Below, piece after piece: positions 2,299 to 29,027 of a stretch of DNA of 64,000 nt. Origin of the DNA: a virus (taxonomy: Duplodnaviria > Caudoviricetes). A program made the position numbers and the translations under genes. The number at the start of each line of letters is the position of its first letter. The stretch's first letter is position 1. The notes below the pieces were generated by a model. That model was not told the DNA's origin, ran no database searches, and saw only the letters and a list, made by a program, of their open reading frames with translations. The stretch spans positions 77,780 through 141,779 of IMG/VR virus record IMGVR_UViG_3300031994_000023; one strand, 5' to 3'.

Positions 2299-2784
2299 TT
2301 ATAAATTGTATTGTGGATGAATAATACTTCTTGCTCTTGATGTTAAGTCTAAATATTCTTTTAATTCGGGTGTGTCATTAATATTTTCTACTTCAAAGGA
2401 GCCGTCAAGTTTTTCTTGTAAACTGTCCAGTTTACTTCTTGCTTCATTTAATAATGATTTTGTCTCATTATATACTGAGTTATTATATTCTGTGGTGATT
2501 AAGGGATGTTCTGCCACCCACTGTGTATCTTGTTGTTGTCCTACTGTCCATTGATTTGTATTTTGTTGTCGTTGTAAATCCTGTTCTAAGAAATATAATT
2601 CATTTCGAAGGTTATTAACTCTTTCTTGTTGTTGTGTGTTGTTTCTTACGTTAGCCATATATTCTCCCCATGTGGATTCGGTTTGTGCACCACCTTCACT
2701 GTTGAGATATATTGCATAGTCATCTATTCCTTCGTCGGTGTATGATGTTCCTCCACCTCCACCGCCTGTTCCTTTACTTGCCAT
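2299..2784 (-). CDS. MASK-tag protein, long-leader (GIDDY..YLN) subfamily
   Basis: Leader MASKGTGGGGGGTSYTDEGIDDYAIYLNSE. Confidence 0.75.
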   Translation of the reverse strand: MASKGTGGGGGGTSYTDEGIDDYAIYLNSEGGAQTESTWGEYMANVRNNTQQQERVNNLRNELYFLEQDLQRQQNTNQWTVGQQQDTQWVAEHPLITTEYNNSVYNETKSLLNEARSKLDSLQEKLDGSFEVENINDTPELKEYLDLTSRARSIIHPQYNL

Positions 2785-2788
2785 GTTA

Positions 2789-3763
2789 TCATTTTATCTT
2801 TTTTAAATCTTTGAAGATTTGTTCTGCTTCCTCTCTTGTTTTACAATCCCATAGTCTGTTCCCCAATTTTGCAGATTCGGGGAATTCTTTCTCCCAACTA
2901 TTATAATCCATTAGTTTCACATGGTTTCCATTATATTCTGCATAAGTATCGGTAATATAATAACGGTTACCTACTCGTATGCGGGCATCGTCGTATCCGA
3001 GCCTATGAGAACCCACAACTTTCATGATTTCTGCAAGAGATTCTGTGTAATATCTAGGATTCGGTACGCCACGTACCATTTCACCACCGCTCTCATAGTT
3101 ATATGTGTATGTTCCAGCATAAGTGGACACATTTTGTTTTTGTGTTTTCATTAATCTTCGGAAAGAGGGGTTGGAGGATAATGTAAATTCGTTTTGGTGT
3201 CCTCCATTATAGTCAAAGTTATGGGTTATTTCATGAATAATAACACCCCTAACATCCCATGCATCATCTTTTTCATAGGATAAAAATGTTTTTTTGATTT
3301 CAACAATTCCATCTCTTTCTGGTCCATCATAATAACTACTCCCAGTTCTACCACTTAGTTTTACTTCTTTTAATGTCTCTTTGAACAAACTTGGTATTTT
3401 ATCGATAGTTGTTAAGCAGTCTTCGAGGGTGGCTTGAGAGTGGGAACTCATACTTTCTTGTCTAAACCCTAATTTACAGTCTACAATGTATGTGCCAGTG
3501 TCTGTTTTTCCTTCGAATATTACTGTTCCATCACTTTTAATTGTTTGAATAACCATATTCGCACTATTTGCTGATGAAAGAACATTCTGAATGTCTTCTT
3601 CTGAGAACTTTTTATATTTTCTCATTTTTTCGGCTTGTTCTTCATTGTAATTAAGTTCGGATGGTGTGAGAGTATGGTCGTCTTGTAAAATAGGGGAGAA
3701 ATTAGTTTGATAGTCATCTAATGTTAACTGGGTGTTTAATGTTATGTTACCTTTGCTCGCCAT
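2789..3763 (-). CDS. MASK-tag zincin metallopeptidase
   Basis: HEITHNFD, STYA and ESLAE motifs. Confidence 0.75.
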   Translation of the reverse strand: MASKGNITLNTQLTLDDYQTNFSPILQDDHTLTPSELNYNEEQAEKMRKYKKFSEEDIQNVLSSANSANMVIQTIKSDGTVIFEGKTDTGTYIVDCKLGFRQESMSSHSQATLEDCLTTIDKIPSLFKETLKEVKLSGRTGSSYYDGPERDGIVEIKKTFLSYEKDDAWDVRGVIIHEITHNFDYNGGHQNEFTLSSNPSFRRLMKTQKQNVSTYAGTYTYNYESGGEMVRGVPNPRYYTESLAEIMKVVGSHRLGYDDARIRVGNRYYITDTYAEYNGNHVKLMDYNSWEKEFPESAKLGNRLWDCKTREEAEQIFKDLKKIK

Positions 3764-3774
3764 GTTCCTTTTAT

Positions 3775-5505
3775 TTAGTCATTACTCCAGTATCCTTTGA
3801 AGTCGTTGGGATTTCTTATGTTTTTTATAACATCTGTGTTTTCACGATGGTCTTTTTCCTCTTCTATGGTTGGTACATTTGGTATCATTCCATAATTTTT
3901 GGTTTCATCAAGGTTGTTAGGGTCTACTGGACTTTCCATACTCTCAGGGTTAATGCCTAGTTGTGCCATTTGTAATTTTGTGGATATGTCATTCATCCAC
4001 ATTTGTTGCTGTTGTCTTTGTGTGTCAAGACTGTGTGATTCTTGACTCATTCCTGCATTGGCAAACATTAAACTTAATGGTGTTCCTCCGACAAAATATT
4101 CATCAAGGTATGGGTTGTCAGGGTCTGCCACTGCCCCTAATGGTTTTCCAAGGCTTTCACTTATTTGTCTTGGAGTCATCGCTCCCAAACTGAAAAGTAT
4201 GCTCGCACTTTGAAGGTCACGGGCGTAGTCTCTTTTGTCAATATCTTCTATTTTGAATAACCATGAGAGGTATTTTTCCCCGTGTAAACGATAATATTCG
4301 TCACTGAGTATTTGGTTTACTATGTCTTCATTTTTCTTTTTAATTGGTTGAATGATACTTGTGTTGTAAATGTTGGATGATTCTACACTAGTGTTTCCAC
4401 CGAGACTCCCATTTATTGCCATACCTATCCTGTATGGTGGAACTCCATGTGCACTTAGGACTTCGTCACGGTTGTCCGCTCGGTATAATCTGAAACTTGC
4501 CTCGTTACTTCCTCCTGCGTTTAGTTTTGTGAAACTTACATGCACGTTTCCTTCGGTGGATGGTACGAGCATGGCGAAGGCACTGTGAGGATTTTTAACG
4601 GCTTGTTCCATGTTTTCCTTAATTTTGTATTTAAGGGTTTTTGTTTCATCATAGTCTGGGTCTTCTTCGTCCATCCCTGGGTCGAAGTCTCCTGTGACTG
4701 TTACTGCATATGAGGGCATTCCATAATTTTGGAAGAAACTACTGTTAAATCGGCTTCTTCCAAGGTCTCCGAAGATGGCTCTTATGACTGGTACTACTTT
4801 TGCACTTCCATATACTGGTGCGTGTGGTGCATAGTTTACTCCCCATATTAATTCGTTTGCTCTTTCGCTTGGGTCTAAACTGTTGTATTCGACTTGTTCT
4901 CCAGTGTCACAGTCGACATCGAATTTGACTCCATCGGGTGTGGTGTTTTTTCCATATAATATGAACCATCTATGTTTTTTTCCAACTCTTTGTAATACTC
5001 GTACTCCGTCTCGGTGTACTTTCATGTTGAATATGGGTGTGGGGTTAAGGTCGACTATGTCGCTTTCACTTGTGTTCCTTCTGAGAATTTCCATGCATCC
5101 ACACCCGAGAGCTCTTTTATCATAACAGAATCTGTATAATGCCGTGTTTATGGGTGTGTATAATTGTAGTAGGAAATCTTCTATGAATTGTTTCTGGTTT
5201 TTTGCTTCGTTAGATTCGTCTTCCACTTGGTTTCGTGGGACTAAACTGTACCCATATCCACTGGCGTCTTCCGCTACGACTTCGCAACATCTTCTATGGT
5301 ATGTGTTGTTGTCTAATAATTCGCAGAGTCTTCTTAAATTATATTGGGGTCGTTTAAATTCGGCGTAATCGTATCCGTCATCATCGACTGCCTTCGTTCT
5401 TGCACGTGCTTCGTCCTCTTTGATAACATACCTGTCTAAGACACTTTTTTCTATTACTTCCCAGTCATTGTTTTTTTGGGTAACTACAAATTGTTCTATT
5501 GCCAT
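3775..5505 (-). CDS. Phage portal protein (PBSX/HK97-like)
   Basis: 576 aa; FFQNYGMPSYAVTV, EASFRLYR..NRDEVLSAHGVPPYRIG and IIQPI motifs typical of PBSX-family portals. Confidence 0.9.
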   Translation of the reverse strand: MAIEQFVVTQKNNDWEVIEKSVLDRYVIKEDEARARTKAVDDDGYDYAEFKRPQYNLRRLCELLDNNTYHRRCCEVVAEDASGYGYSLVPRNQVEDESNEAKNQKQFIEDFLLQLYTPINTALYRFCYDKRALGCGCMEILRRNTSESDIVDLNPTPIFNMKVHRDGVRVLQRVGKKHRWFILYGKNTTPDGVKFDVDCDTGEQVEYNSLDPSERANELIWGVNYAPHAPVYGSAKVVPVIRAIFGDLGRSRFNSSFFQNYGMPSYAVTVTGDFDPGMDEEDPDYDETKTLKYKIKENMEQAVKNPHSAFAMLVPSTEGNVHVSFTKLNAGGSNEASFRLYRADNRDEVLSAHGVPPYRIGMAINGSLGGNTSVESSNIYNTSIIQPIKKKNEDIVNQILSDEYYRLHGEKYLSWLFKIEDIDKRDYARDLQSASILFSLGAMTPRQISESLGKPLGAVADPDNPYLDEYFVGGTPLSLMFANAGMSQESHSLDTQRQQQQMWMNDISTKLQMAQLGINPESMESPVDPNNLDETKNYGMIPNVPTIEEEKDHRENTDVIKNIRNPNDFKGYWSND

Positions 5506-5598
5506 GGTTATCTAGTTTAATAGTATATATATGATAAAGTTTATAAGTAAAAAATATGATTAGATTCTCTTTTTTTATATAGATGAGGTGATTTGTTA

Positions 5599-5922
5599 AT
5601 GGTTAAAATAAAAGAATTAATTAGTGAAACGGGCATTGATGTGAATGTTACAGATGCACTGTTGGAGTTGGAACCTATTAAAAAGTTCAAACTATTAAAA
5701 TATGATAAAAGTAATATACATGGACACAGATTCAAAGGAATTAGCAGTGAAGAGGGTGAAGAATACCGAGTAGTGATTGAAGTAAACGAACACTTTCAAT
5801 CAATAACCCTAATAGAATACAAAGAAAAAGTAATTAAAAACAGATGGAACAAGGATGGAATATGGGACAACCCCCAACTACATTACATGCCAACACAAAA
5901 CGAACTAAAACCTCACCCATAA
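5599..5922 (+). CDS. Small protein of the convergent partner family
   Basis: GAGGTG RBS 8 nt before ATG 5599; MVKIKELISETGIDVNVTDALLEL; 3' end overlaps the 3' end of HExxH gene 5913..6902. Confidence 0.7.
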   Translation: MVKIKELISETGIDVNVTDALLELEPIKKFKLLKYDKSNIHGHRFKGISSEEGEEYRVVIEVNEHFQSITLIEYKEKVIKNRWNKDGIWDNPQLHYMPTQNELKPHP

Positions 5923-6902
5923 CGCTCCAAGTACAAAGCGTCCATCTTATCCAACCACTCACGAGGAGTTTTAGACTCACGAAACAAACGAGCCACATGG
6001 TCTAACTCAGGCTCCAACCTAACATGCTCCTCATACGAAATATCCCCCGCAATAGTATACTGTGAACCATTAACATAACCCACCTTACCAGAACCAGGAG
6101 TAGAATCCTGAGCCTTTGCACGAGTAGGATTAGAAATAGCAGTACCCAGAGGCATAACTGAACATGCAAGATTCTCAGTATGATACATTTCCCTCATTTC
6201 TTGTTCAGGATTATTTTTAAACCCTCTTGCATACTCTGACGCACTATGCTCCTCTGACAACTTCTTAAAATAAGGATGGTCAGAAAGTGTAGTGTAAGAT
6301 TCGCCACTTAAATAATCTACTTTATGAGTTCCTTCATGTTCCATCACATTCTTATAACCACTACTAGCCCATGGGTCTTTTTTATCAAAAATACTGAAAG
6401 AATCATAAATTATGACATCATTTCCAGGGTCGTAATGTCCACTCTCTCCTTGGTCGTCACCATAAAATATCTGTGCTCCACCATAATACTTGAAAATTTC
6501 GGGGTAATCCTTGGCGTAATATTTAAAAAACTGTTCGGGTGTAACAATTAATTCTCCGTTGTGCATTGCAGAGAGTACACTTGAATCTAAGAGTAATGCT
6601 TGATTATCAAAGTATGCCACAAATTCTTCATCTTCCATATAAAATTGGTCATAACCTAATTCTTTTAGAGTTTTCAGAAGTTTTGTTGCATCTTCTTCAT
6701 TGAGGCTCGTGTTCTCAGTTAAGTATTCTATTGTTTCCGCTTCTTCTTGTTTTGTTGATTCTCTCATCATCATAACCCTTTCGTTGGGATGATGTTCACT
6801 ACTACTTATCCAGTCACCATATGAGTCTATGTATTTGTTGTAATCTTCCAACTCCTTGGTGGAACTTAAACTCATCAGTGATGTGTTTCCTTTACTTGCC
6901 AT
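5913..6902 (-). CDS. MASK-tag zincin metallopeptidase
   Basis: HEGTHKVD, SEYA and ENLA motifs. Confidence 0.75.
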   Translation of the reverse strand: MASKGNTSLMSLSSTKELEDYNKYIDSYGDWISSSEHHPNERVMMMRESTKQEEAETIEYLTENTSLNEEDATKLLKTLKELGYDQFYMEDEEFVAYFDNQALLLDSSVLSAMHNGELIVTPEQFFKYYAKDYPEIFKYYGGAQIFYGDDQGESGHYDPGNDVIIYDSFSIFDKKDPWASSGYKNVMEHEGTHKVDYLSGESYTTLSDHPYFKKLSEEHSASEYARGFKNNPEQEMREMYHTENLACSVMPLGTAISNPTRAKAQDSTPGSGKVGYVNGSQYTIAGDISYEEHVRLEPELDHVARLFRESKTPREWLDKMDALYLERYG

Positions 6903-7428: not shown

Positions 7429-8304
7429 TTATTTGAGTATTTGTGGTGTGGGCTCTGTTGGTTCTAAATATGTTTGTGCATAGAGTTTAGGGTTTTCTAT
7501 AAATTCGCCTGCTAATTTTATCATTTGTTTGTTTTCATCTTTTTTTGCCCAAGTCTTGTATGGCATAAGACCTTCTTTTGTAGGTACAATTATGTTTTCA
7601 CCATGTTTTTTGGCTAATTGAACATATGCTCCTACTTCTGCCAAGTTTTCTGCCCTTTTTCTCCAATCCGTAGACCTTGGGTCAATTGATACTGCATATG
7701 CATATTCTGTTGGTGTTTTACCATCAGACGCTTCTTTCCACGCTTTGTTCTTAGAGAAAAAGCCTCGCACACTATTACTACTCCGGTATGCCCAGTCAAG
7801 AGAATGTATTGACTCATGATTCAAAGAATATTCTAAACTTTGTGGACTGTTCTTTGAGTGTAGTAAATTTCCAGCAGTGATTATGATTACGTTGGCACTT
7901 GGAACGAATTGTCCGAGAACTTCCCTACCATTTGGATTATATTTTGGTCCAGTGAATGTTATTTGGTTAACATGTCCTTTAATGTTAGGATTTAAGTTTG
8001 TATAATACTCCATAACATCCCTCAAAGTGTATCGTCCATCAGGTAAATTGTCATTTAATCCGAACCTTGAATTAGTAAGAAATGCTCCTCTAAATACCAA
8101 TCTTTCGTTAGGTGCATTAGGGTCAGAGTTTGATAGGATGAGAGAATCTATTTTTTTATCATAGGTTGCGTTGAACCCATATTCTTTGGCTACTGTTTCA
8201 ATGTATTTTATTTGATTGTCCATTAAGTAACCCATTTGGTTGAGGTTTTTAATTTCAACGGAGTCTGTGGATATTGCGTTTAGTGAAGAGTATTTACTTG
8301 CCAT
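7429..8304 (-). CDS. MASK-tag zincin metallopeptidase
   Basis: HESIHSLD, TEYA and ENLAE motifs. Confidence 0.75.
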   Translation of the reverse strand: MASKYSSLNAISTDSVEIKNLNQMGYLMDNQIKYIETVAKEYGFNATYDKKIDSLILSNSDPNAPNERLVFRGAFLTNSRFGLNDNLPDGRYTLRDVMEYYTNLNPNIKGHVNQITFTGPKYNPNGREVLGQFVPSANVIIITAGNLLHSKNSPQSLEYSLNHESIHSLDWAYRSSNSVRGFFSKNKAWKEASDGKTPTEYAYAVSIDPRSTDWRKRAENLAEVGAYVQLAKKHGENIIVPTKEGLMPYKTWAKKDENKQMIKLAGEFIENPKLYAQTYLEPTEPTPQILK

Positions 8305-8351: not shown

Positions 8352-8918
8352 TTATTTGTATCTTTCACTGACTAGTGTGTCCATTGCTGTTTGTGCACTA
8401 TAATATCTGTCAAAGAATTCTTCTAGGTACCCTTGGTTTCCGAGATATTCTATTTGTCGTTCTAAGTCTCTGTTGATTCGTTCATTGTTTAAACCTCTGG
8501 CTTGTATTGTTTCCTGCATTGCCTTTGAGGATATTATGGTGTTTAATCTGTTTTGAACATCTCGTCCTCTTGATAATGTACCCATGAGTTCGGAGTAGGC
8601 TTGTTCTAGTTGCTCCGTTGGTTCTCTCAGTTGATTAAATGGGTAATTTTCTGTTTCAATATTATGTACGAGTTGTCTTGCCATTGACACTCTTTGTCTT
8701 TCGAGGTCATCTAGTTTTTGGGTTACATTATCTATTATTTCATCTGTGTCTTGCAGTAAGTGTTCTCGACTTCCGAAGGCACTTTCATTAGTTTGTGTTC
8801 CTGTTTCTGTTTCAGTTAATTCTTCTCCTGTGAGTGGGTCTGTGTTGTGCCAGTTTCCTTCACCATCTATGTATCCTACTCCCATTTGAATATTACTTCC
8901 ACCATCTTTACTAGCCAT
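8352..8918 (-). CDS. MASK-tag helical/coiled-coil protein
   Basis: MASKDGGS start; acidic helical body. Confidence 0.7.
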   Translation of the reverse strand: MASKDGGSNIQMGVGYIDGEGNWHNTDPLTGEELTETETGTQTNESAFGSREHLLQDTDEIIDNVTQKLDDLERQRVSMARQLVHNIETENYPFNQLREPTEQLEQAYSELMGTLSRGRDVQNRLNTIISSKAMQETIQARGLNNERINRDLERQIEYLGNQGYLEEFFDRYYSAQTAMDTLVSERYK

Positions 8919-9485: not shown

Positions 9486-10433
9486 TTATAACTTGCTATC
9501 CATGAATGCCACCACTTCATCAACAGAATTTGCATTATACACAACATCCGCCAACTCTGCCAACTCCTTATGAGACTTTCTCCAATCACCATAAGGCATG
9601 TCATTACCTGGATTAGAAGGGTCTTCAATCATTGCAAGATGTCGTGTACTCTTATCTGACCAATATCTCATAGGCATAACCGCTTCCGCCAAGTTTTCAC
9701 AATAATATTTCCTATTCTCATCAGGGTCAGATGAATTTTTATAACTTAAACTATACCCCGAAGCTGCACTTTTATCCGAAATTTTCATGAAATAAGGATG
9801 ATTTGAGATTATTCCACCACCATTAAGTGCACCTTTTCCTCCGAAATCCAATCTATGCACATGCTCATGTAACATTGTATGTCCTAAATCATAACTAGTA
9901 CCTTGACCTATTTGGAACAATGGTGTAACACTTATATAAATCTCATTGTCTTCTGTGTAATAGTTTTGGTCAGAATATGCGAATATTACTTTTCCACCAT
10001 TTGCATGGAATAAATCTGGTTGATTATTTATTTCATCTAAGATTGATGAAAAACGGTATGCTGAATCGAATGGGTTGATTGGTATTTCATCTTCCACAAA
10101 TTCTAGGTATCTGTCAGATATGAAATATATTTGATTGTCTTGTCGTAATGTTATTCCATTTATTCCTTCATGTTCGTATTCTGGTAATATTTCGAATCCT
10201 GCATTTTGTATGTCATAGTATAAGTCGTAGTATGCGTCAATGTCAAGTGTTTCTTCGTCAACCGTTTTGCTTTTTTCTGCCAGAAAATCTTCGACATCAT
10301 CTACTGATTCCATATTATAGTATTCATCTAATGAAGGGTCGTATGTTTTTTCTTGTTCGTCGAATGTTTCTTCGTATTCTTCCTCTGTCTCAGAAACGGT
10401 TGTTGTGGAACCACCACCATATTTACTTGCCAT
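9486..10433 (-). CDS. MASK-tag zincin metallopeptidase
   Basis: HEHVHRLD, SGYS and ENLAE motifs; close paralog of 10477..11433. Confidence 0.75.
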   Translation of the reverse strand: MASKYGGGSTTTVSETEEEYEETFDEQEKTYDPSLDEYYNMESVDDVEDFLAEKSKTVDEETLDIDAYYDLYYDIQNAGFEILPEYEHEGINGITLRQDNQIYFISDRYLEFVEDEIPINPFDSAYRFSSILDEINNQPDLFHANGGKVIFAYSDQNYYTEDNEIYISVTPLFQIGQGTSYDLGHTMLHEHVHRLDFGGKGALNGGGIISNHPYFMKISDKSAASGYSLSYKNSSDPDENRKYYCENLAEAVMPMRYWSDKSTRHLAMIEDPSNPGNDMPYGDWRKSHKELAELADVVYNANSVDEVVAFMDSKL

Positions 10434-10476: not shown

Positions 10477-11433
10477 CTAAAAGTATTCATCCATATATTC
10501 ATCTTTTAAGTGTTGTGGATATGATTCCCATTTTTTGTCCAAGAATGACACTATCTCATCTAATGAATTAGAAGAATAAACTTTCTCTGCAACCTCTGCT
10601 AATTCCGTGTGTGTTTTCCTCCAGTTCCCATAGGGTATGTCTTCTCCTGTGTCAGGGTCACTAATCATAGCCATATGTCTTGTAGATTTATTCGCATAAT
10701 ATCTCATAGGCATAACAGATTCCGCCAAATTCTCTCCAAAGTAATTTTGCCAATCTAATGGATTATCACTTTCTTTGTAAGATTTACTGTATGCCGATGC
10801 AGGACTGCTATTTGAAATTGCCCTAAAATATGGATGTCCAGATATAAGTCCTTCACGTTGTTGTTTTCCTTGTTCAAAATCAAGCCTATGTATATGTTCA
10901 TGAAGAATAGTTTGCCCTATTGAACCAGAAGTTCCTTTTTTATCATTGTCGAGCATGGTTGTACTGAGAGTAATTTCATTACTATAAGGGTCATAATAAT
11001 TTTGGAAGGTGTCTTCTAAACGTACAAGACCACCCATTGACTTAATTAATGGAGGATGTGAATCAAACTCTGCTAGAATATCTTTTAAAGAGTAATCTGT
11101 CTGATAATCAAGGGTTCCTCTCTTTTCGTTAAGGTAGTCCTTGTATTCATCAGATAAAAAATAAACATTATTATCTTTTCGGAACATTATCCCATCAACA
11201 CCATCATAGGAAAATGTTGGAAGAACTTCATAACTGTTTGCAGTTAATGCGTCATAAATCTGAGCTAATTCTTGTTTAATTTCTGGTTCATCCACTCCCA
11301 TTTCTTCCATTTTGGTGTTTATAAAATCTTCTTTCCCCATTTCTTTCATATCATAATATGAAGATAGTGAAGGGTCACGGAGATTCAATGTACTCTCCGA
11401 TGAAAGTAGAATAGAACTATATTTACTTGCCAT
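10477..11433 (-). CDS. MASK-tag zincin metallopeptidase
   Basis: HEHIHRLD, SAYS and ENLAE motifs; shares VMPMRY..KSTRH with 9486..10433 (tandem duplication). Confidence 0.75.
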   Translation of the reverse strand: MASKYSSILLSSESTLNLRDPSLSSYYDMKEMGKEDFINTKMEEMGVDEPEIKQELAQIYDALTANSYEVLPTFSYDGVDGIMFRKDNNVYFLSDEYKDYLNEKRGTLDYQTDYSLKDILAEFDSHPPLIKSMGGLVRLEDTFQNYYDPYSNEITLSTTMLDNDKKGTSGSIGQTILHEHIHRLDFEQGKQQREGLISGHPYFRAISNSSPASAYSKSYKESDNPLDWQNYFGENLAESVMPMRYYANKSTRHMAMISDPDTGEDIPYGNWRKTHTELAEVAEKVYSSNSLDEIVSFLDKKWESYPQHLKDEYMDEYF

Positions 11434-12151: not shown

Positions 12152-13672
12152 TTACATTATAATTTTTGTTCGTTTATGAGTCCATTGTCGAGCACTGCCG
12201 GTGAGACTATCCACAATGTCATCACGTTCACCTTCCACACCCGTGAAACTAATTAATTGTTCAATCATCTTATTATTCCATGGGGCACGAACGAATTTAA
12301 CACAACGACTTTCTGCCAAATTTTCCAAAGCGAAACTACGAATATTCTTTGCACCACGCACTTTATCACCACGAATATTCCATAACTTAAGACGAGGATG
12401 ATTTGCAAAACTGTTAATAAGAATTCGACTACCACTACCAGGCTCTTCCTCAATCCTTATTCTCACATGTCTACCATCCTTCAATGCAATTCTCATAAAT
12501 GTTTCATTAACCATTTTCGGAGTGAAATTCCCATTTACAAGGTCGAGAACATAGAGTGTTTCGCCATCATACGCAGTTAACACACCACTAGTTTCATCAC
12601 CTTCAGGTTTATAGTTTGCCTTGGTTTTCTTGTTAGCTGCGAAATCCCAGTATCTCATCCGAGGTATTCCTTCGGGTACTTCATCTTTTTCTATTATGCA
12701 TGTAGGCACCACTCCATCTTCATCGTAGAACCATTCTCTTCGGAACACATATCCTTGTCTTACGGTAGGGTTGCCTTGATATACTGCGTTGAAGAGGTAA
12801 GAACCCATACTTCTCTTGGCTTCCATTAACACATTAATATCCCTTTGTTCTTCCCACAAGACTTCTCCTTCTTTTCTTCCTAGAAGGTCACGAGAAGGGT
12901 CTTCACATATTGCGGGGAAGTTAACATCAACCCATACTTCTTGAGGTATTGCCCCACCTTTCCTTAAAATCTCTAATGCCTCTTTAGCATCAATTGTTGG
13001 CTCATTTCGTTGAATGATTCCCTGCAAATCATTGATATGTAAACGTTGTGCGATTATGAGCATTATGGGTGGTAGTCCATTACTACGTTTTTGTAAACGA
13101 GTTTTTGCAGTTGCCTCAAACCATGACCTTAATTTATCTTGCAATACAGGACTTTCCGCTTCGGCAATGTTTTTAATAGGGTCGTCAATTATGAAGAGCC
13201 CCGCACCGAAACCGAGGATAGAACCGGCAGCACCTACACTTAACATTTGTCCTTCAAATGGTTTTTGCATGTGAAACTTGTTTTTTGCCTTACTATCTGT
13301 TGCAAGTCCCGCTTTAAGAAGTGTTTGGTCACTATAATAGTTAAGAATGTCTTTTACTTCTCCTCCGAATTCACTGGCTAAACCCTGTGAATAAGAGGAT
13401 AAAATCACCTGCTCATTTGGGAAGTTTGCAAGGAAATATGAACAAAATATTTTACTTATGAGTGTGGATTTTCCGTGTCGTGGTGGTACGGAGAGCATGA
13501 GTTTGGAGACTTTACCTTGGATGGCATAATAAAGAAATTCTATGATTATTTTGTCAAAGTCTCTTGGTTTCCATGTTCCATTGGTTATTAATTTACCCCA
13601 CATTGCAATATTTATGGAGGCAGGGTTGTACAAATCGTTAGGTAATTTTTTATCTATTTCTGTTTCGGTCAT
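12152..13672 (-). CDS. terL: Terminase large subunit
   Basis: Walker A PPRHGKS, Walker B IIDDP, YQGNP, nuclease motifs RYWDFA and DDIVDS. Confidence 0.95.
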   Translation of the reverse strand: MTETEIDKKLPNDLYNPASINIAMWGKLITNGTWKPRDFDKIIIEFLYYAIQGKVSKLMLSVPPRHGKSTLISKIFCSYFLANFPNEQVILSSYSQGLASEFGGEVKDILNYYSDQTLLKAGLATDSKAKNKFHMQKPFEGQMLSVGAAGSILGFGAGLFIIDDPIKNIAEAESPVLQDKLRSWFEATAKTRLQKRSNGLPPIMLIIAQRLHINDLQGIIQRNEPTIDAKEALEILRKGGAIPQEVWVDVNFPAICEDPSRDLLGRKEGEVLWEEQRDINVLMEAKRSMGSYLFNAVYQGNPTVRQGYVFRREWFYDEDGVVPTCIIEKDEVPEGIPRMRYWDFAANKKTKANYKPEGDETSGVLTAYDGETLYVLDLVNGNFTPKMVNETFMRIALKDGRHVRIRIEEEPGSGSRILINSFANHPRLKLWNIRGDKVRGAKNIRSFALENLAESRCVKFVRAPWNNKMIEQLISFTGVEGERDDIVDSLTGSARQWTHKRTKIIM

Positions 13673-13776: not shown

Positions 13777-14292
13777 TTATCTGTCTTCGTATCCGTCACG
13801 TAACCAACCATATGCTGTCACCCTATCACTATCCGGATGGTCTCTTAGATATTGGTACATGTCTTGGAGGTTCTGTTCGACATGTTGTTGAACATTTTGT
13901 TGATAGTACCTTTCAAATTGTGCGTATGATTTGAAAGCATGTTGGTATGGAAGATATTCTGCATCATACAGTTGGTGTAATCTGTCACGAGGATAATTTA
14001 AACCTTCTATACGACCTAGCTGTTCGGGATTAAACCTGTTTCTCTGAACATCAACAGTTAAATATTGTTCTAATTCTCTGTCAATTTCACCTTTGGTCAT
14101 GTATCTACTGACTGGTGTGAGGTCTATTGTTTCACCATCTACTTCTACGGTTGTGGATGGATTATTCCATCTTTCTGCTCTTGCAGGGTTTGTGTCTGTT
14201 GCAACACTATTCAAATATGTTGGGTAGTCGTCTATTCCTGTGTCTTCATAGGAGGCTCCTCCACCACCCCCGCCTTCTCCTTTACTAGCCAT
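13777..14292 (-). CDS. MASK-tag protein, long-leader subfamily
   Basis: Leader MASKGEGGGGGGASYEDTGIDDYPTYLNS. Confidence 0.75.
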   Translation of the reverse strand: MASKGEGGGGGGASYEDTGIDDYPTYLNSVATDTNPARAERWNNPSTTVEVDGETIDLTPVSRYMTKGEIDRELEQYLTVDVQRNRFNPEQLGRIEGLNYPRDRLHQLYDAEYLPYQHAFKSYAQFERYYQQNVQQHVEQNLQDMYQYLRDHPDSDRVTAYGWLRDGYEDR

Positions 14293-16081: not shown

Positions 16082-16095
16082 TGATTATTCCCTCT

Positions 16096-16365
16096 TTATC
16101 CTCTGTTTCCTCTGTTATTTCCACTCTTACTCATATTTATTCTGTCGTCGACAGTACGAGTACCTTCATTTTCATTTATACCTGGTGCTCCCTCACGACC
16201 CATAAGTCTGTCTATGAAGTCATCTACATCTGCATTTACATTTCCTGCGGGTGTGACCATTGCAGTTGCTGTTCCGTCGGCTCCACCACTTCTTGGTCCT
16301 CTTGTACGGGTGTTGTCTCCTGCTCCTGTTAGTCCACCGACTCCGTATCCTTGTTTGCTTGCCAT
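16096..16365 (-). CDS. MASK-tag Gly/Arg-rich small protein
   Basis: MASKQGYGVGG start; low complexity, probably disordered. Confidence 0.65.
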   Translation of the reverse strand: MASKQGYGVGGLTGAGDNTRTRGPRSGGADGTATAMVTPAGNVNADVDDFIDRLMGREGAPGINENEGTRTVDDRINMSKSGNNRGNRG

Positions 16366-19432: not shown

Positions 19433-19930
19433 TTATACCCTATTCCTTCCACTGTTTCTTCTACGATTTCTTCTAGACATCGTTTCTCGATAATTTTCTT
19501 CTAAATATTCAGTTCTTGTATCCATGTACTCTCTAATCCCAGACAATGCTTCTTCATAGTGTCCTCTATAACCACCATTAAGGTTGTACAGGAAATAATT
19601 TTCATAGAAATCTGAAAGTTCAGCATAGGCTTGTTTTAATTCGGGAACATCATATCCTGCGTAGATTGACTCATGAAGAAAATCTTCGTCATCCCCACTA
19701 TACGGGAATTCAGGATTATTTATTAGTTCCCAATATTTTTCGTCAATTTCTGCCTTATACCTATCCCATTCGTCCCTACTCGCTTCCTGTGGGTTAAATG
19801 GAAGAGTACTTCCATCTTCTACATACTCCAAAACATTAGTTTCACTGTTGAGGTAGGTTGGGTAGTCGTCTATTCCTTCATCGGCGTAGGATGCTCCCCC
19901 ACCACTTCCTCCTTCTCCTTTACTAGCCAT
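19433..19930 (-). CDS. MASK-tag protein, long-leader subfamily
   Basis: Leader MASKGEGGSGGGASYADEGIDDYPTYLNSE; Arg-rich C-terminal tail. Confidence 0.75.
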   Translation of the reverse strand: MASKGEGGSGGGASYADEGIDDYPTYLNSETNVLEYVEDGSTLPFNPQEASRDEWDRYKAEIDEKYWELINNPEFPYSGDDEDFLHESIYAGYDVPELKQAYAELSDFYENYFLYNLNGGYRGHYEEALSGIREYMDTRTEYLEENYRETMSRRNRRRNSGRNRV

Positions 19931-19958: not shown

Positions 19959-21089
19959 TTATTTTTCTTTTCTTTTATAATCTTTATATTTTTCAAATAT
20001 CTCAGAGTTTCTTTCACGATAACTATAATACTCTTCATTCAAGAAGTTAATAATTTCTTTAGGTGTTTTAGCCTCACGAACATGTCTTCCAATATAATCA
20101 CCATAACTATTATATTTCTGATAATCCTCATATGAAGTCCGACGCCCCTTCGGACTGAGAGGTGTATCCACATAAGACTTGGAACCCGTATATATATTAC
20201 CTAGAGGAGCGGTGGACTCTGCAAAATTTTCAACACGATAAATATCAGAAAAATAAGGATGTGGAGAAACACCATAATAACTATTACTATAGTCAGAAGC
20301 AGTCCATATTTCACTGGCAATCTTGAACATAGGATGGTCTGAAATATATCTTCCTGCGAAAGCGTATTCCCTATCACTTGCACCCATACCCCCATAATTA
20401 TCCAGACGGTGTGTCAACTCATGCTCAAAAGTATTCTTAAAATCATACGTTTTCAGAAGGGTACTGTTCAGAGTTATAGTATTATATGTTTCACTATAGG
20501 CTCCACCTAGCACGCCCTCTGAAGAGGCATACTTGTCTAAACTATGGTCTGTGAGTATTATTCGACCAGGATAAAATTTGTAAATGTCTGGACACTCTGT
20601 GGAGAAATACTGCAAATATTGGTGTGGGGGAACAGAAAATGGTGCATCCTCATTGAATATGTTTTGCATGCCTTCATAACTAATACTAACAAGTTGATTT
20701 CCTAATCTGACATTAAAATAATGTTCTCCTTCAAGAGTATCACTGTTTAATATTTGGTACCCTTCTTTTTTTAACTCATCCAAGAAGGCTTTTGCTCCTT
20801 CTTCAGTGTATCCTCCTTTTTCTATTAATTCTTGGAGGGCTTGTTTTTGTGTTATTTTTTTGTAGTCTTCGAATAGTTTTTCGTCTGTTATGGGTGTGTC
20901 TGATTCGTACCAGTCTTTTCCTTTGAGCACTTCTTCGTTGATGAATTCTAAGTCGGAGTCACTGTTTCTTATGTATATTCCGAAGTTGTCTTCGTTGAAG
21001 GGTCTGTAGTCTTGTTCGAAGTTATCTCCTTCTCCTTGGAAGTCTCCACCATATAGTGAGTCTAGGCTTGTTGCGTTTTTACTTGCCAT
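19959..21089 (-). CDS. MASK-tag zincin metallopeptidase
   Basis: HELTHRLD, SDYS and ENFAE motifs; most similar to 5913..6902. Confidence 0.75.
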   Translation of the reverse strand: MASKNATSLDSLYGGDFQGEGDNFEQDYRPFNEDNFGIYIRNSDSDLEFINEEVLKGKDWYESDTPITDEKLFEDYKKITQKQALQELIEKGGYTEEGAKAFLDELKKEGYQILNSDTLEGEHYFNVRLGNQLVSISYEGMQNIFNEDAPFSVPPHQYLQYFSTECPDIYKFYPGRIILTDHSLDKYASSEGVLGGAYSETYNTITLNSTLLKTYDFKNTFEHELTHRLDNYGGMGASDREYAFAGRYISDHPMFKIASEIWTASDYSNSYYGVSPHPYFSDIYRVENFAESTAPLGNIYTGSKSYVDTPLSPKGRRTSYEDYQKYNSYGDYIGRHVREAKTPKEIINFLNEEYYSYRERNSEIFEKYKDYKRKEK

Positions 21090-21095
21090 GATTTT

Positions 21096-21479
21096 TTATA
21101 ATATTATCGTTGTGGTGTTTTGTGTTTGGGTTATTCTAGGTGTGTTTCCCCTTGCTTCAGTTATTTCTTGTTGTATTTGTTGTTCTAGTTGTTCTAGTTG
21201 GTCTATGTTTTCGCCGAATTTTCGGAATTCTAGTCGTATTTGTCGTGTGCTTGTTGTGTGGTTTTGTATTAAGGAGTTTTGGAGTAGTTTGGCTTCTTCG
21301 TATGTTTTTAGTAGTTTTTTTACTAGTTGTTCATGTTTCTTGCTTACAAAGTGTCTTGTTCTGTATTGTTCGGCTTTGTTAAGGATTGTTTCTTCGTCTT
21401 CTCGATGGTAATTTCCCCATCCGTTTGTGTTTCGGGGTGTCCATAAACTGTTTAATGTGTTTGTGCCTTTACTTGCCAT
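21096..21479 (-). CDS. MASK-tag coiled-coil protein (start reassigned to 21479)
   Basis: MASKGTNTLNSLWTP; paralog of 22309..22932 (S..HE.L...L and QQIQQEI shared). Confidence 0.7.
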   Translation of the reverse strand: MASKGTNTLNSLWTPRNTNGWGNYHREDEETILNKAEQYRTRHFVSKKHEQLVKKLLKTYEEAKLLQNSLIQNHTTSTRQIRLEFRKFGENIDQLEQLEQQIQQEITEARGNTPRITQTQNTTTIIL

Positions 21480-22308: not shown

Positions 22309-22932
22309 TTATTCAGTGAAATTTAATTTATACTCTTTATCGTCAACGGTATTTGTGATATTAGCATGATTCTGGTTAGAATTTGTGTTCGTCACCACAT
22401 TTTCCTTGTTATCTGTATTGTGATTATATGTTAATACGGTTCGTGTGTTATCTTTGTTTTGTCCCCTATAAGTAGGGTCTCTTGTATATACAGGTACTAT
22501 ATTACCTGTTTTGTCTCGAATAATTTTTCGTGCAATTTTACCCTTGTTTGCTGTTTTTATGGAATCGTTAATATCTTGTCTTTTTTGTATTTCCTGTTGG
22601 ATTTGTTGGATTATTCTGTCGGCTTCTAATGTGCTTTCTCTTTTTGCAATACCATATTCGGCTTTGGTAAATACGTCTAGTTTGTTGTTGGTGAATCTTT
22701 GGATGGTGTTTGTGTATTCTATGATTTCTTCTTTTTTTCGTTGTAGTTGTTCCATTAATTTCTCATGCTCTTCTGAGATGTATCCTTCGTTTTGTGTTTG
22801 TTCTTCTAGTTGGTTTATGGTTTGTATTGTTTTTTCTGAGTTGTAGGTTGTGTGTCCATCGTATGGTGTTGGTTCGTTGGGTATGGGTGTGAGTATGGAT
22901 TGTAGTGTTTGGTTTGTTCCTTTACTTGCCAT
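22309..22932 (-). CDS. MASK-tag coiled-coil protein
   Basis: MASKGTNQTLQSILTP; paralog of 21096..21479. Confidence 0.7.
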   Translation of the reverse strand: MASKGTNQTLQSILTPIPNEPTPYDGHTTYNSEKTIQTINQLEEQTQNEGYISEEHEKLMEQLQRKKEEIIEYTNTIQRFTNNKLDVFTKAEYGIAKRESTLEADRIIQQIQQEIQKRQDINDSIKTANKGKIARKIIRDKTGNIVPVYTRDPTYRGQNKDNTRTVLTYNHNTDNKENVVTNTNSNQNHANITNTVDDKEYKLNFTE

Positions 22933-22993: not shown

Positions 22994-23506
22994 CTACCAG
23001 TATGGTTTTCCTGTGTCGTTTAAGTCATTTATTAGTTGGGTTCTTTGGTTTTGTAGTGTGTTTAGTTGATTCCTTAGTTGCTCTTCTCTTTGAGGTGTTA
23101 CTCCTTGTGAAATTGTTTGCATGATGTTTTCCATGCGTTCTATTAATTTGATTTGTTGTTTTTGCAATTGTATTGCATGGTCTAGGTTTGCATTGTCGGC
23201 TCGGAGTTCGGATTCATCAGAACGGTAATCTTCTAACTTATTGGTATCTGTGGTTGTGGTGGTTTGGTTAATTAAATTTCTTAATTCAGAGTTGTTTCGA
23301 TTCAACTGTTCTTGTAGTTGAGATATATTACTTTGTATCATTTCCTGTTCAGAAGGAACATCTATATCATATTCTTCTCTTAACTCATCATATTTGTTCA
23401 TAAAACTGTCAGAAGTGGTGTTAAGATAAGTGGGATAGTCATCTATTCCTGTGTCCACATATGATGCTCCACCACCATTACCATTTCCACTATTTTTACT
23501 TGCCAT
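22994..23506 (-). CDS. MASK-tag protein, long-leader subfamily
   Basis: Leader MASKNSGNGNGGGASYVDTGIDDYPTYLNT; coiled-coil body. Confidence 0.75.
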   Translation of the reverse strand: MASKNSGNGNGGGASYVDTGIDDYPTYLNTTSDSFMNKYDELREEYDIDVPSEQEMIQSNISQLQEQLNRNNSELRNLINQTTTTTDTNKLEDYRSDESELRADNANLDHAIQLQKQQIKLIERMENIMQTISQGVTPQREEQLRNQLNTLQNQRTQLINDLNDTGKPYW

Positions 23507-23858: not shown

Positions 23859-24467
23859 TTAATCAAAAGTTTTGTAATTGCGTCCTGTTGCCCATTCATT
23901 TAGTGTTATGTTGTCTTTTACCATTTGTTTCGCTACACTCGGGTCATGCTCAAACCAAATTATTCTTTCAGTACCATAGTCTGGTGTCCATCCTTGGCTC
24001 ATCATGTCGTCATTGTATTGAGAGTCCCAGTTTACCCATCCTACAGGTTTATATCCACAGTGTAAGTAGAAATCCCAATTCCCTTCGAAACTGTCGAAGT
24101 TGGTTCCGCCTTTGTCTATTGCAATTTCGTTTATGGCTCTCATGTTGTCTAATGATTCGCCGTTAGCGTCTCTGGCAGAACTTAAACTTATCAATGTGTG
24201 TGTGTCTCTGGTTATTGCGAATGTACTTCCGTTTTCCGTTATGTACATGTCTGCGTTTTTTAGGGCTTCTTCGTCTGGTGTGTCTACTCTCCATGAGATT
24301 TCTGGGTCTGTGTTGTTTTTGTTTTGTTGTACGTTTTGTATGAATTCTGTTGTGTCATATGTTTGTCTGTATTTGATTTGAGGGTAACTATCTGTTGCAC
24401 TGCTTTTGTTGGGTGATGTGTATGTGGTGTAGCCACTTGTCGTGTTTGAACTGTATTTGCTTGCCAT
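23859..24467 (-). CDS. MASK-tag GNAT-like protein
   Basis: AIDKGGTNFDSFEGNWDFYLHCGYKPVGWVNWD resembles the GGxxLDxF...Y...GF..V GNAT-like domain of viral polyvalent proteins. Confidence 0.5.
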   Translation of the reverse strand: MASKYSSNTTSGYTTYTSPNKSSATDSYPQIKYRQTYDTTEFIQNVQQNKNNTDPEISWRVDTPDEEALKNADMYITENGSTFAITRDTHTLISLSSARDANGESLDNMRAINEIAIDKGGTNFDSFEGNWDFYLHCGYKPVGWVNWDSQYNDDMMSQGWTPDYGTERIIWFEHDPSVAKQMVKDNITLNEWATGRNYKTFD

Positions 24468-24720: not shown

Positions 24721-24787
24721 AAAAAAAAGTAAAAAAAAAAGCATGGAAAAAAAATCAAACCCATACCAAAAACAATAAACAATATTA

Positions 24788-27964: not shown

Positions 27965-28277
27965 GAGGAAATTTTTTTTATAGGAGAGCAGTTGGATTTG
28001 ATAAAATTGATTTTTAAGAGTTAGTAATACTTCTTTTTCAACTATGCTCTAAAAGAACGGGCGTTGGGATAAAAGAGAAAATAAGAAACATTTAAATACT
28101 ATGAAAACATATATAATAGTGTAGAAAAAAGAATATAAACCTTTTTTTTACCATAAACAATAATTCGTACAAAAAAAAGGCGAGATTACACTCACATAGT
28201 TTAACTTTTAAAAATAGTTTAGATTATAAACAATTATATTCTATACAAGGAAAAGTTAAAGAAGGGAGGTGATACCT

Positions 28278-28346
28278 ATGCCAAAATGGGATATGTATTA
28301 TTACATAAACCATATTTTGACATTGTTGAACCACCTATTTAATTAA
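28278..28346 (+). CDS. 22-aa hydrophobic peptide in a structured intergenic locus
   Basis: GGAGGTGA RBS before ATG; MPKWDMYYYINHILTLLNHLFN; TATA-like TTTAAATA near 28091. Confidence 0.45.
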   Translation: MPKWDMYYYINHILTLLNHLFN

Positions 28347-28481
28347 GAAGAAGTAATCCCGTTTAACTTTTGTATAATTATTGTTTTGTATCTCCACCTA
28401 TATATACATTATTATTCTACAAACCTCTTTTTTTATCCAAACCTCGCCCCTTCGCTTTGAAAAAATTAATGAAAGATTGTC

Positions 28482-28518
28482 TTTTACCTTAATGTATGAG
28501 TTTTACCTTAATGTATGA
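28482..28518. repeat. 18-bp tandem direct repeat TTTTACCTTAATGTATGA
   Basis: Two copies 1 nt apart, duplicating the 3' end of gene 28503..29027. Confidence 0.8.
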
Positions 28519-29027
28519 TTTATTAAATTAGGGGAAGTTATTCTTGTTCTGCGTTCTGGTGCTTTAAGTTGTCTTCTTCCTCTTGCAGATTCTGTTGCCA
28601 TAACTCCTTGAACATATGATTCGTATTGAGGAGCATTTTCGTAACGGAATGTTTCATATTCATAGATTTTGTCTAATAACTCTTCTTCCATCTCTGCTAA
28701 TCTTCGATTATCCTCTACTCTTACTCTTTCACCATTTTCATATCTTCTGGTGAACCTATCATGGAGGATATTATCCCTTTCTATGAGTTGTTCATATATT
28801 TCTTTAGCCATATTTTGAAGAGTTTTTATCTCTTCTTTTTGTTTTACTCTGTCAAGGAAGTATGTTTCATTTAATGCATCTTTCCAGTCTCTTGTAACAA
28901 CACTCTCCCTTGCTCCAGTATCGTTATTATTTCTTGTTTCGGTGTTGAGGTAGGTTGGGTAGTCATCTATCCCTTCATCTATGAATGGTGCTCCACCACC
29001 TCCACCACCTCCTCCTTTACTTGCCAT
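28503..29027 (-). CDS. MASK-tag protein, long-leader subfamily
   Basis: Leader MASKGGGGGGGGAPFIDEGIDDYPTYLNTE. Confidence 0.75.
   Translation of the reverse strand: MASKGGGGGGGGAPFIDEGIDDYPTYLNTETRNNNDTGARESVVTRDWKDALNETYFLDRVKQKEEIKTLQNMAKEIYEQLIERDNILHDRFTRRYENGERVRVEDNRRLAEMEEELLDKIYEYETFRYENAPQYESYVQGVMATESARGRRQLKAPERRTRITSPNLINHTLR

What the first reader, a model, noticed from the sequence alone, without database searches (positions are those of the whole stretch)
2299..29027. Seven proteins share a ~28-aa leader (MASK-Gly linker-SY.D.GIDDYPTYLN) fused to unrelated C-termini
Seen: ORFs starting at 2784, 14292, 14761, 16081, 19930, 23506 and 29027 share this leader, and similarity stops abruptly after YLN[ST]. 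The 14292 and 16081 leaders are identical over 28 aa yet differ at 10 synonymous codons, indicating strong purifying selection on the peptide rather than a recent DNA duplication. Inference: a polymorphic architecture of constant targeting module plus variable payload. The acidic Tyr-rich motif may be a docking peptide, and the leader DNA may also serve as a recombination handle for swapping payloads.
Basis: partly seen in the sequence, partly recalled or inferred. Interest (0 to 1): 0.8.

Follow-up and report, generated by a model that had tools for sequence, protein, structure and literature searches.

The report
Shared address peptide in methanogen virus
Seven otherwise unrelated small acidic proteins of a 142-kb virus of rumen methanogens begin with the same flexible 28-residue peptide, which is kept by selection on the protein; it most likely works as an address label that brings interchangeable proteins to one common partner, perhaps the virus head, but that partner is not identified.

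Summary
Seven minus-strand ORFs start with MASK, a Gly linker and [AT][SP][YF]xDxG[IL]DDY[PA][TI]YLN, and similarity ends there. In the 16-codon core, synonymous sites are saturated (pS 0.74) while pN is 0.13, so selection acts on the peptide.

The payloads show no BLAST or hhalign similarity. Two AF2 models give different folds, with the leader disordered in both. Three payloads have orthologues in sister viruses that carry another leader or none, so the leader is a portable module.

An HMM of the leader against 1.84 billion proteins finds only these seven. Sister genomes use a different leader (PTM.ED..G.IF), also on unrelated payloads.

The leader is the second layer of a larger system. Twenty-two genes of this archaeal tailed virus start with MASK. 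Each sister genome has its own tag (MGKNR, MGNN, MATNSE, MxxKY) on the homologous, fast-evolving gene set, which includes 6-7 zincin-like proteins.

Best reading: an address or docking peptide, possibly for loading the capsid as in phage T4. This is inferred, not shown. The "recombination handle" idea is neither supported nor excluded.

This scan has noted similar shared N-terminal tags on other viral DNA. I class it as a new variant of a known kind.

The parts
2299..2784 (-). Leader protein 1 (161 aa). Leader is coded by 2701-2784; payload is acidic (pI 4.6).
   Evidence: It lies directly downstream of the MASK-tagged zincin-like gene 2789-3763 and of the portal gene.
13777..14292 (-). Leader protein 2 (171 aa). 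Leader is coded by 14209-14292; payload is a mixed alpha/beta fold.
   Evidence: The orthologue G001 80023-80469 (40% identity over 126 aa) carries MGKNR..LPTMSEDTAGTIF instead. AF2: pLDDT 70 overall, residues 1-32 below 50.
14285..14761 (-). Leader protein 3 (158 aa, counted from the MASK start at 14761). Leader is coded by 14684-14761.
   Evidence: The payload is 54% identical (E 4e-42) to L027 5015-5530, whose N-terminus is unrelated to this leader.
15674..16081 (-). Leader protein 4 (135 aa). Leader is coded by 15998-16081. This gene is present in some strains and absent in others.
   Evidence: Contigs from a goat-gut run skip 15807-16110, and another run replaces about 15619-16069. A contig from an RNA library covers 15831-16104 (weak evidence).
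19433..19930 (-). Leader protein 5 (165 aa). Leader is coded by 19847-19930.
   Evidence: It lies directly downstream of the MASK-tagged zincin-like gene 19959-21089.
22994..23506 (-). Leader protein 6 (170 aa). Leader is coded by 23420-23506; payload is three long helices.
   Evidence: The orthologue L020 2021-2470 lacks the 22-aa linker plus motif. AF2: pLDDT 77 overall, residues 1-36 below 50.
28503..29027 (-). Leader protein 7 (174 aa). Leader is coded by 28944-29027. Its start overlaps the end of the Hjc resolvase gene 29017-29409.
1..389 (-). MASK-tagged ORF without the leader (200 aa; it runs off the window start). Begins MASKGNTTLNS.
1707..2099 (-). MASK-tagged ORF (130 aa) without the leader.
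   Evidence: Weak homologue of MGKNR-tagged G001 79495-80007.
2789..3763 (-). MASK-tagged zincin-like protein (324 aa, payload family 1). Begins MASKGNITLNT.
   Evidence: phrog_4728 'head morphogenesis', E 4e-4.
5913..6902 (-). MASK-tagged zincin-like protein (329 aa, family 1).
7429..8304 (-). MASK-tagged zincin-like protein (291 aa, family 1).
8352..8918 (-). MASK-tagged ORF (188 aa).
9486..10433 (-). MASK-tagged zincin-like protein (315 aa, family 1).
10477..11433 (-). MASK-tagged zincin-like protein (318 aa, family 1).
16096..16365 (-). MASK-tagged ORF (89 aa). Its orthologue L020 8256-8525 starts MAGKY.
19959..21089 (-). MASK-tagged zincin-like protein (376 aa, family 1).
21096..21479 (-). 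MASK-tagged ORF (127 aa). Begins MASKGTNTLNS.
22309..22932 (-). MASK-tagged ORF (207 aa).
23859..24467 (-). MASK-tagged ORF (202 aa).
3775..5505 (-). Portal protein. Context only: untagged, 76% identical in the sister genome.
12152..13672 (-). Large terminase. Context only: untagged. Closest cultured relative is Methanobacterium virus Drs3, 58.5% identity.

Best explanation
The 28-residue N-terminus is a portable, intrinsically disordered address module made of three parts:
- a 4-residue genome-wide tag (MASK);
- a Gly linker;
- a 16-residue acidic, Tyr-rich short linear motif ([AT][SP][YF]xDxG[IL]DDY[PA][TI]YLN), followed by a second short polar linker.

In this virus lineage it is attached to seven small acidic proteins of independent origin, and selection on the peptide keeps it in place.

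The most likely mechanism is that the motif docks all seven proteins to one common partner, so that different payloads are brought to the same place. The likeliest destination is the assembling head, where they would be loaded as internal or ejected proteins, as the capsid-targeting sequence does for phage T4 internal proteins.

Shown: modularity, purifying selection, predicted disorder, non-homologous payloads, and leader/payload re-assortment among sister genomes.

Inferred: that the motif binds anything, and that the destination is the capsid. My odds are about 0.75 for a docking or address peptide read by a common partner, and about 0.4 for loading into the virion specifically. The confidence given for this entry (0.45) is for the statement as a whole, capsid destination included.
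For: 1. Seven copies and no others in the 142-kb genome; 16 invariant columns, then an abrupt loss of similarity.
2. pS 0.74 against pN 0.13 in the core; two leaders identical in protein differ at 10 synonymous codons.
3. Payloads are unrelated: BLAST E >= 0.2, hhalign <= 1.4%. AF2 gives an alpha/beta fold for one and a three-helix bundle for another, with the leader below pLDDT 50 in both.
4. Orthologues of three payloads in sister genomes carry another leader or none. In relatives, the PTM.ED..G.IF leader sits on fam7 (G001), fam3 (L023), the G001-78553 family (L027) and two singletons (L013).
5. Context: the virus is a tailed archaeal virus, and the tagged genes fill the gaps between TerL, portal, protease-scaffold and MCP. 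Smaller relatives without tags (Drs3, L014, L022) have these core genes contiguous.
6. Tagged proteins evolve 3-4 times faster than core proteins (23-40% against 76-82% identity), and every homologue in G001 carries that genome's own tag.
7. Tag codons vary synonymously in line with codon usage, so the tag too is selected as a peptide.
8. Published precedent: T4 internal proteins are a diverse set sharing only a conserved CTS that encapsidates them into the scaffolding core (PMC3012670).
Against: - No partner is identified.
- There is no virion proteomics for this virus or any relative.
- No conserved protease site follows the motif: only 5 of 7 copies have YLN[ST]E, and nothing matches the T4 LxE rule.
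- Several leader genes sit among DNA-modification and recombination genes (QueC, ParB-N, methyltransferases, Hjc) rather than strictly among head genes.
- The payloads are acidic (pI 4.2-5.9). The T4 internal protein described in the review read here has basic faces thought to travel with DNA (PMC3012670); that IPI-III are basic as a group is from my own knowledge, not checked here.
- This exact leader exists in no other genome searched, so conservation across species cannot be used as evidence.
Confidence: 0.45

Rival explanations
1. The motif is a docking peptide for a partner that is not the capsid interior. The leader would recruit the seven proteins to a cytoplasmic hub (a host or viral machine, for example replication or DNA-modification complexes, a chaperone or a protease), or anchor them on the outside of the virion, as conserved N-terminal anchors do for interchangeable phage tail-spike and fibre proteins.
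For: It rests on the same modularity and selection evidence as the best explanation. Leader genes 5 and 7 adjoin ParB-N-like, methyltransferase and Hjc genes. The acidic payloads and the long helical bundle of 22994-23506 would also suit fibre-like or DNA-mimic proteins.
Against: The payloads have no Ig, beta-helix or other adhesin-like fold. The tagged gene set as a whole is concentrated inside the head and packaging module. No host motif class fits (see Tried and rejected).
Confidence: 0.3
2. The leader is a propeptide or regulatory handle. It would be recognised and removed, or used as a degron, by a protease: the prohead protease, one of the 6-7 tagged zincin-like paralogues, or the YgjP-like metallopeptidase. 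This would time the activation or destruction of the payloads.
For: The genome encodes many candidate proteases. Family 1 has an invariant HExxH..E and profile matches to ECE-1 and neprilysin. There is also a YgjP-like gene at 16437-17072. Two leader genes lie directly downstream of zincin-like genes (2299-2784 and 19433-19930). The leader is disordered and flanked by linkers.
Against: There is no conserved cleavage motif at the leader/payload boundary. Adjacency in 2 of 7 cases is about what chance gives. Sister genome G001 has six zincins but only one leader-type protein.
Confidence: 0.12
3. These are ordinary paralogues. A single ancestral small protein duplicated, its N-terminus stayed conserved and the rest diverged beyond recognition, so no module transfer and no special addressing role is involved.
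For: The payloads are similar in size (107-146 aa) and composition (acidic, rich in aromatics). Tagged proteins evolve very fast, so old paralogues would escape BLAST and hhalign. The profiles used were shallow, with 1-2 sequences each.
Against: Three payloads have orthologues in sister genomes with a different leader or none, so the payload families are older than this leader. Two modelled payloads have different folds. The same architecture with another leader recurs on unrelated payloads in relatives.
Confidence: 0.08
4. The conserved 5' segment acts mainly at the nucleic-acid level, as a translation or transcription signal or as a recombination handle that shuffles payload cassettes.
For: The first 12 nt are nearly invariant in 22 genes. 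Exact runs of 20-22 nt are shared by some leader pairs. Near-identical strains differ by indels at leader gene 4, and one break lies about 12 nt into the ORF, just after the MASK codons.
Against: Synonymous sites of the motif are saturated. Tag codons in G001 vary freely and follow genome codon usage. The uniform AGY serine codon in G000 is explained by descent under selection for Ser. The highly expressed core genes (MCP, portal) lack the tag.
Confidence: 0.07

Closest known systems
Capsid-targeting sequence (CTS) of phage T4 internal proteins (IPI, IPII, IPIII, Alt) and the hypervariable IP loci of T-even phages
   Same: A short N-terminal peptide is the only thing shared by a diverse, fast-evolving set of small proteins of a large tailed virus (PMC3012670). 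The genes are strain-variable.
   Different: There is no sequence similarity to the T4 CTS. The leader here is 28 aa in three parts (tag, Gly linker, acidic motif), whereas from my own knowledge the T4 CTS is about 10 aa. No cleavage site follows it. The head protease is an XkdF/HK97-type protease-scaffold fusion, not gp21. The host is an archaeon. Encapsidation is untested. The payloads are acidic.
MuF-domain polymorphic toxins of temperate phages (named from my own knowledge; I did not read a paper on them)
   Same: A constant N-terminal module thought to put a variable C-terminal effector into the phage head. The position next to the portal matches gene 2789-3763.
   Different: No MuF domain is detectable in any leader or tagged protein. 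The constant part here is a disordered peptide, not a folded domain.
Encapsulin cargo-loading peptides (from my own knowledge)
   Same: A short conserved peptide on a flexible Gly-rich linker that docks unrelated cargo to the inner face of an HK97-fold shell.
   Different: Those peptides are usually C-terminal and hydrophobic or small-residue (GSL-type). This one is N-terminal and acidic-aromatic. No binding to the MCP was shown.
Conserved N-terminal anchor of interchangeable phage tail-spike and receptor-binding proteins (from my own knowledge)
   Same: A conserved N-terminus with swappable C-terminal parts within and between related genomes.
   Different: Those anchors are folded domains on large beta-helical or fibre proteins in the tail module. 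The payloads here are 107-146-aa acidic helical or alpha/beta proteins in the packaging and head region.
RiPP precursors (shared leader plus variable core, with a radical-SAM maturase)
   Same: Several genes share a leader and have variable C-termini, and a radical-SAM gene lies nearby (29473-30399).
   Different: The proteins are 135-174 aa with folded payloads. The radical-SAM protein resembles 'mobile pair B'/PA0069-type enzymes and has no SPASM-type hit above noise. It sits beside only one of the seven genes.

Membership tests
T4-type capsid-targeting sequence system | One short N-terminal peptide shared by otherwise unrelated small proteins of one virus | tested here: met
T4-type capsid-targeting sequence system | Sequence similarity to the T4 CTS, and a prohead-protease site (L/I-x-E) closing the tag | tested here: not met
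   The alignment shows no such site. Only 5 of 7 copies have E two residues after YLN, preceded by N-[ST], not L/I-x. The T4 consensus itself is from my own knowledge.
T4-type capsid-targeting sequence system | Tagged proteins are packaged in the capsid and the tag is necessary and sufficient for this | not testable with these tools
   No virion proteome exists for this clade.
T4-type capsid-targeting sequence system | Gene set is hypervariable between related viruses | tested here: met
MuF polymorphic toxins | N-terminal Phage_Mu_F domain | tested here: not met
   Pfam and PHROGs scans of all seven leader proteins and of family 1 find no MuF hit. Only gene 2789-3763 has a weak phrog_4728 'head morphogenesis' hit (E 4e-4), and that hit lies over the zincin region.
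Encapsulin cargo-loading peptide | Peptide binds the interior of the HK97-fold shell protein | tested here: inconclusive
   One prediction job gave no verdict.
RiPP precursor family | Short precursor (leader plus unstructured core) with a cognate maturase in the same operon | tested here: not met
Ordinary paralogue family | Homology extends over the body of the proteins | tested here: not met
   The profiles were shallow, so very old common ancestry is not excluded.

The most novel reading that the evidence does not exclude
Large viruses of Methanobacteriales use a two-layer N-terminal protein address code.

Layer 1 is a 4-6-residue tag that is uniform across about 20 genes within a genome but differs between sister genomes (MASK, MxxKY, MGKNR, MGNN, MATNSE). 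This implies a fast co-evolving reader, for example one that keeps a virus's cargo private during co-infection.

Layer 2 consists of longer leader classes (GIDDYPTYLN here, PTM.ED..G.IF in relatives, and GN[TS]TLN[ST] on other genes) that sort subsets of this cargo to a particular site in the particle or the cell.

Leaders would move between genes as cassettes.
Probability: 0.15. Interest if true: 0.85.

Novelty: new variant of a known kind. Interest (0 to 1): 0.6.

Why it matters
Shared N-terminal address tags on variable proteins are established experimentally only for a few phages, T4 above all. Here the same logic appears in an archaeal virus of rumen methanogens, in a layered form and with clear evidence of module exchange between sister genomes.

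If the leader does load proteins into the capsid, it marks out a set of candidate injected effectors of a methanogen virus: seven small acidic proteins, plus a wider tagged set that includes 6-7 zincin-like proteins. It would also give a short peptide that could be used to package foreign proteins into archaeal virus particles.

The genome-specific tags pose a sharper question: what reads a 4-residue N-terminus, and why does it change so quickly?

Tried and rejected
- Complex prediction of leader (A4) with MCP 1-350 (A7) and scaffold 225-388 (A8): no verdict, score 0.00. This is not evidence either way.
- DNA pattern for the motif in IMG/VR: 0 hits. Word-based search of 5.8 billion protein clusters: only the window's own proteins, plus an identical copy on a 1.6-kb ENA contig.
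- The HMM search gave one foreign hit, P0128, a repeat protein with GIDDxRIYLN in each repeat (I read it as beta-propeller-like). I judged it a chance match of a short strand-turn motif.
- ESM Atlas look-alikes of 13777-14292: all below 0.9, Atlas model pLDDT 0.46. Foldseek against PDB and BFVD with the AF2 model: nothing with E <= 0.001.
- Pfam, PHROGs and NCBIfam on the seven proteins: only noise.
- Motif classes considered by eye and dropped: PIP box (no aromatic pair at the required positions), SSB-tail-like DDIPF (must be C-terminal), YPxnL late domain (no ESCRT expected in this host; too short), EF-hand or dockerin Ca loop (register does not fit), class III (prepilin) signal (no hydrophobic stretch), N-myristoylation (applies only to the MG tags and is a eukaryotic system).
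- The idea that the leader mimics the scaffold segment FDGIQEALDDY.FA: that segment is conserved in genomes with different leaders, and [ILV]DDY is common in this acidic proteome. No support.
- The idea of 7 leaders pairing with 7 zincins: only 2 are adjacent, and G001 has 6 zincins with 1 leader-type gene.
- RNA evidence: short contigs from one sheep-gut metatranscriptome cover parts of the region, including 15831-16104. DNA carry-over cannot be excluded, and stretches without cover mean nothing.
- Literature searches found no description of these tags.

Full report
**What is there**

The window is the last 64 kb of a single 141,779-bp contig. The contig has 34% G+C and its ends repeat.

It encodes a portal (PF04860), a T4-type large terminase, an HK97-like capsid protein and a protease-scaffold fusion. 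It also encodes a C5 methyltransferase, QueC, two ParB-N-like proteins, a YgjP-like metallopeptidase, an archaeal Hjc resolvase and a radical-SAM protein.

The terminase is 58.5% identical to that of Methanobacterium virus Drs3. Portal relatives lie on contigs from Methanosphaera and Methanobrevibacter metagenome bins. The DNA is held in sheep- and goat-gut runs. This is a large tailed virus of rumen Methanobacteriales.

**The observation**

Seven minus-strand ORFs begin with MASK, 5-9 mostly Gly residues, and then [AT][SP][YF]xDxG[IL]DDY[PA][TI]YLN. Their coordinates are 2299-2784, 13777-14292, 14285-14761, 15674-16081, 19433-19930, 22994-23506 and 28503-29027.
- No other copy exists in six frames of the whole genome.
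- Sixteen of the first 28 columns are invariant, and nothing is conserved after YLN[ST].
- The leaders at 14292 and 16081 are identical in protein and differ at 10 synonymous codons.
- Over all 21 pairs, the 16-codon core has pS 0.74, which is saturation, against pN 0.13.

The copies are therefore old at the DNA level, and the peptide is held by purifying selection.

**Are the payloads unrelated?**

- With the leader removed, the best pairwise BLASTP E-value is 0.2.
- All 21 hhalign comparisons have probability <=1.4%.
- No payload matches Pfam, PHROGs or NCBIfam above noise.
- AF2 models were built from two-row alignments with orthologues. For 13777-14292 the model is a compact alpha/beta fold (pLDDT 80-90 in the body). 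For 22994-23506 it is three long helices (pLDDT above 90). The leader is below pLDDT 50 in both.
- All seven payloads are acidic (pI 4.2-5.9) and 107-146 aa long. A very old common origin cannot be formally excluded.

The comparison with relatives argues against a common origin, as follows.

**Relatives**

I collected sister genomes and fragments whose portal or capsid protein is 74-84% identical to that of this virus: G001 (137 kb), L013, L020/L028, L021, L023 and L027.

Three of the seven payloads have orthologues there:
- 13777-14292 matches G001 80023-80469 (40% identity). That protein starts MGKNRASTLPTMSEDTAGTIF.
- 22994-23506 matches L020 2021-2470, which simply lacks the 22-residue linker plus motif.
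- 14285-14761 matches L027 5015-5530 (54% identity, E 4e-42), which has an unrelated N-terminus.

The payload families therefore pre-date this leader, and the leader was grafted onto them, or homogenised among them, in the lineage of this virus.

The same architecture recurs with a different leader. PTM.ED..G.IF heads five proteins in four sister genomes. Their bodies belong to at least four unrelated groups, and each pair shares only the first 27-40 residues.

The exact GIDDYPTYLN leader is found nowhere else. A degenerate DNA pattern gives no hit in IMG/VR. A word search of 5.8 billion protein clusters returns only the window's own proteins. An HMM of the leader against 1.84 billion representatives returns the seven proteins plus one chance match to a repeat protein that I read as a beta-propeller.

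**The wider system**

MASK alone, encoded by ATGGC[ATG]AG[TC]AAA, starts 22 genes between genome positions 76,892 and 106,806.

Each sister genome has its own tag on a similar number of genes:
- MGKN(R) on 21 genes in G001, and also in L023 and L027;
- MGNN[TP] in L013;
- MATNSE in L021;
- M[AGTP][SG]KY in L020/L028.

Every BLAST homologue in G001 of a MASK protein is MGKNR-tagged. The bodies of tagged proteins are only 23-40% identical, whereas core proteins are 76-82% identical.

Tag codons in G001 vary synonymously in proportion to genome codon usage. The tag is therefore also selected as a peptide. The uniform AGY serine codon in MASK is what descent under selection for Ser would leave.

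More distant relatives have no tag and no such genes, and their TerL, portal, protease and MCP genes are contiguous. These are Drs3, L014 and the 93.8-kb L022, with portals <=58% identical.

The leader under study is thus a second layer on top of a genome-specific tag.

**How it most likely works**

The module is a tag, a flexible linker and a short acidic-aromatic motif, followed by another polar linker. It is predicted to be disordered, selected as a peptide, and attached to unrelated folded bodies. That is the anatomy of a docking (short linear) motif read by one common partner.

The tagged genes fill the spaces between the head and packaging core genes of a virus whose genome is nearly four times that of its untagged relative Drs3. 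[quoted passage not shown]

I therefore favour loading into the procapsid, at about 0.4. The general claim of an address peptide with a common reader stands at about 0.75.

Against the capsid reading:
- no cleavage site closes the leader;
- the payloads are acidic;
- some copies sit among DNA-modification genes and an Hjc gene;
- nothing shows packaging.

**The recombination-handle idea**

Current DNA identity over the 84 nt is 73-87% among the five copies of equal length, with exact runs of up to 22 nt.

Contigs of goat-gut strains, mostly 90-99% identical (the run also laid pieces under 90%), skip 15807-16110. This removes most of leader gene 4. In another run, about 15619-16069 is replaced by roughly 52 nt, and the upstream break falls right after the MASK codons.

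This shows that leader genes are strain-variable cassettes. Two junctions are too few to show that leader DNA guides the exchange.

**Comparison and novelty**

The system works like a T4-type CTS but fails two defining features of that family, sequence similarity and a protease site. The key feature, encapsidation, is untestable here.
- It is not a MuF toxin, because there is no MuF domain.
- It is not a RiPP system, because the payloads are folded and there is no SPASM maturase.
- It is not an ordinary paralogue family.

This scan has noted shared N-terminal tags on many unrelated proteins in other large viruses, including another archaeal virus. Those are unchecked AI notes, so the general phenomenon is not unique to this genome.

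What is particular here:
- the host group;
- the layered address (genome-specific tag plus leader class);
- the direct evidence for leader/payload re-assortment;
- the strictly lineage-specific leader.

I class it as a new variant of a known kind, with interest 0.6.

Noticed in passing
window 831-1670, 2789-3763, 5913-6902, 7429-8304, 9486-10433, 10477-11433, 19959-21089 (all minus strand); homologues in L005, L006, L013, L023: About seven paralogous ~300-aa proteins, six of them MASK-tagged, share an invariant HExxH...D...E motif. Their profile matches zincin metalloproteases in the PDB (ECE-1 at E 2.8e-5, neprilysin, MJ1213 minigluzincin). One member, next to the portal, weakly hits PHROG 'head morphogenesis'. 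A multi-copy, tagged, fast-evolving zincin family in an archaeal virus looks like an effector set.
   Followed up: partly
genome 76,892-106,806 (window up to 29027); G001, L013, L020/L028, L021, L023, L027: Genome-specific N-terminal tags (MASK, MGKNR, MGNN, MATNSE, MxxKY) sit on about 20 genes per genome. They are selected at the protein level and switched in concert across homologous families between sister viruses. No mechanism or reader is known.
   Followed up: partly
window ORF starts 389, 3763, 6902, 21089, 21479, 22932; genome 76,892: A second extended leader class, MASKG-N-[TSI]-[TS]-L-[NM]-[ST] and variants, is shared by members of different payload families (zincins, the ~200-aa family, singletons). 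Six of the seven contain an N-x-[ST] sequon.
   Followed up: no
window 24644-24721 (-): ARAGORN calls a 78-nt tRNA with an undetermined anticodon (oversized anticodon loop).
   Followed up: no
window 15619-16110, and 24500/28848: Structural variation between strains in goat- and sheep-gut runs: deletion or replacement of leader gene 4, and a joint linking 28848 to 24500 with 36 other letters. If that joint is a deletion, it removes the tRNA, ParB-N and methyltransferase block together with the payload of leader gene 7.
   Followed up: partly
genome 74,736-76,292 (L011 14736-16292, minus strand): The protease-scaffold gene has no ATG at the start of its protease domain in this genome. The open frame continues upstream of the 388-aa ORF (…VVTAPVLIPYAPDCEY…), which matches the N-termini of the 520-568-aa homologues. 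This points to an alternative start codon or an assembly error. The middle of the scaffold is a hypervariable low-complexity region with KC-containing repeats.
   Followed up: no
window 29017-29409 (-) and 29473-30399 (-): An archaeal Hjc Holliday-junction resolvase (E 1.7e-37) lies next to a radical-SAM protein of the 'mobile pair B'/PA0069 type. The Hjc stop overlaps the start of leader gene 7.
   Followed up: no
window 27965-28502: About 540 nt downstream of leader gene 7 contain no ORF of 50 aa or more on the coding (minus) strand.
   Followed up: no
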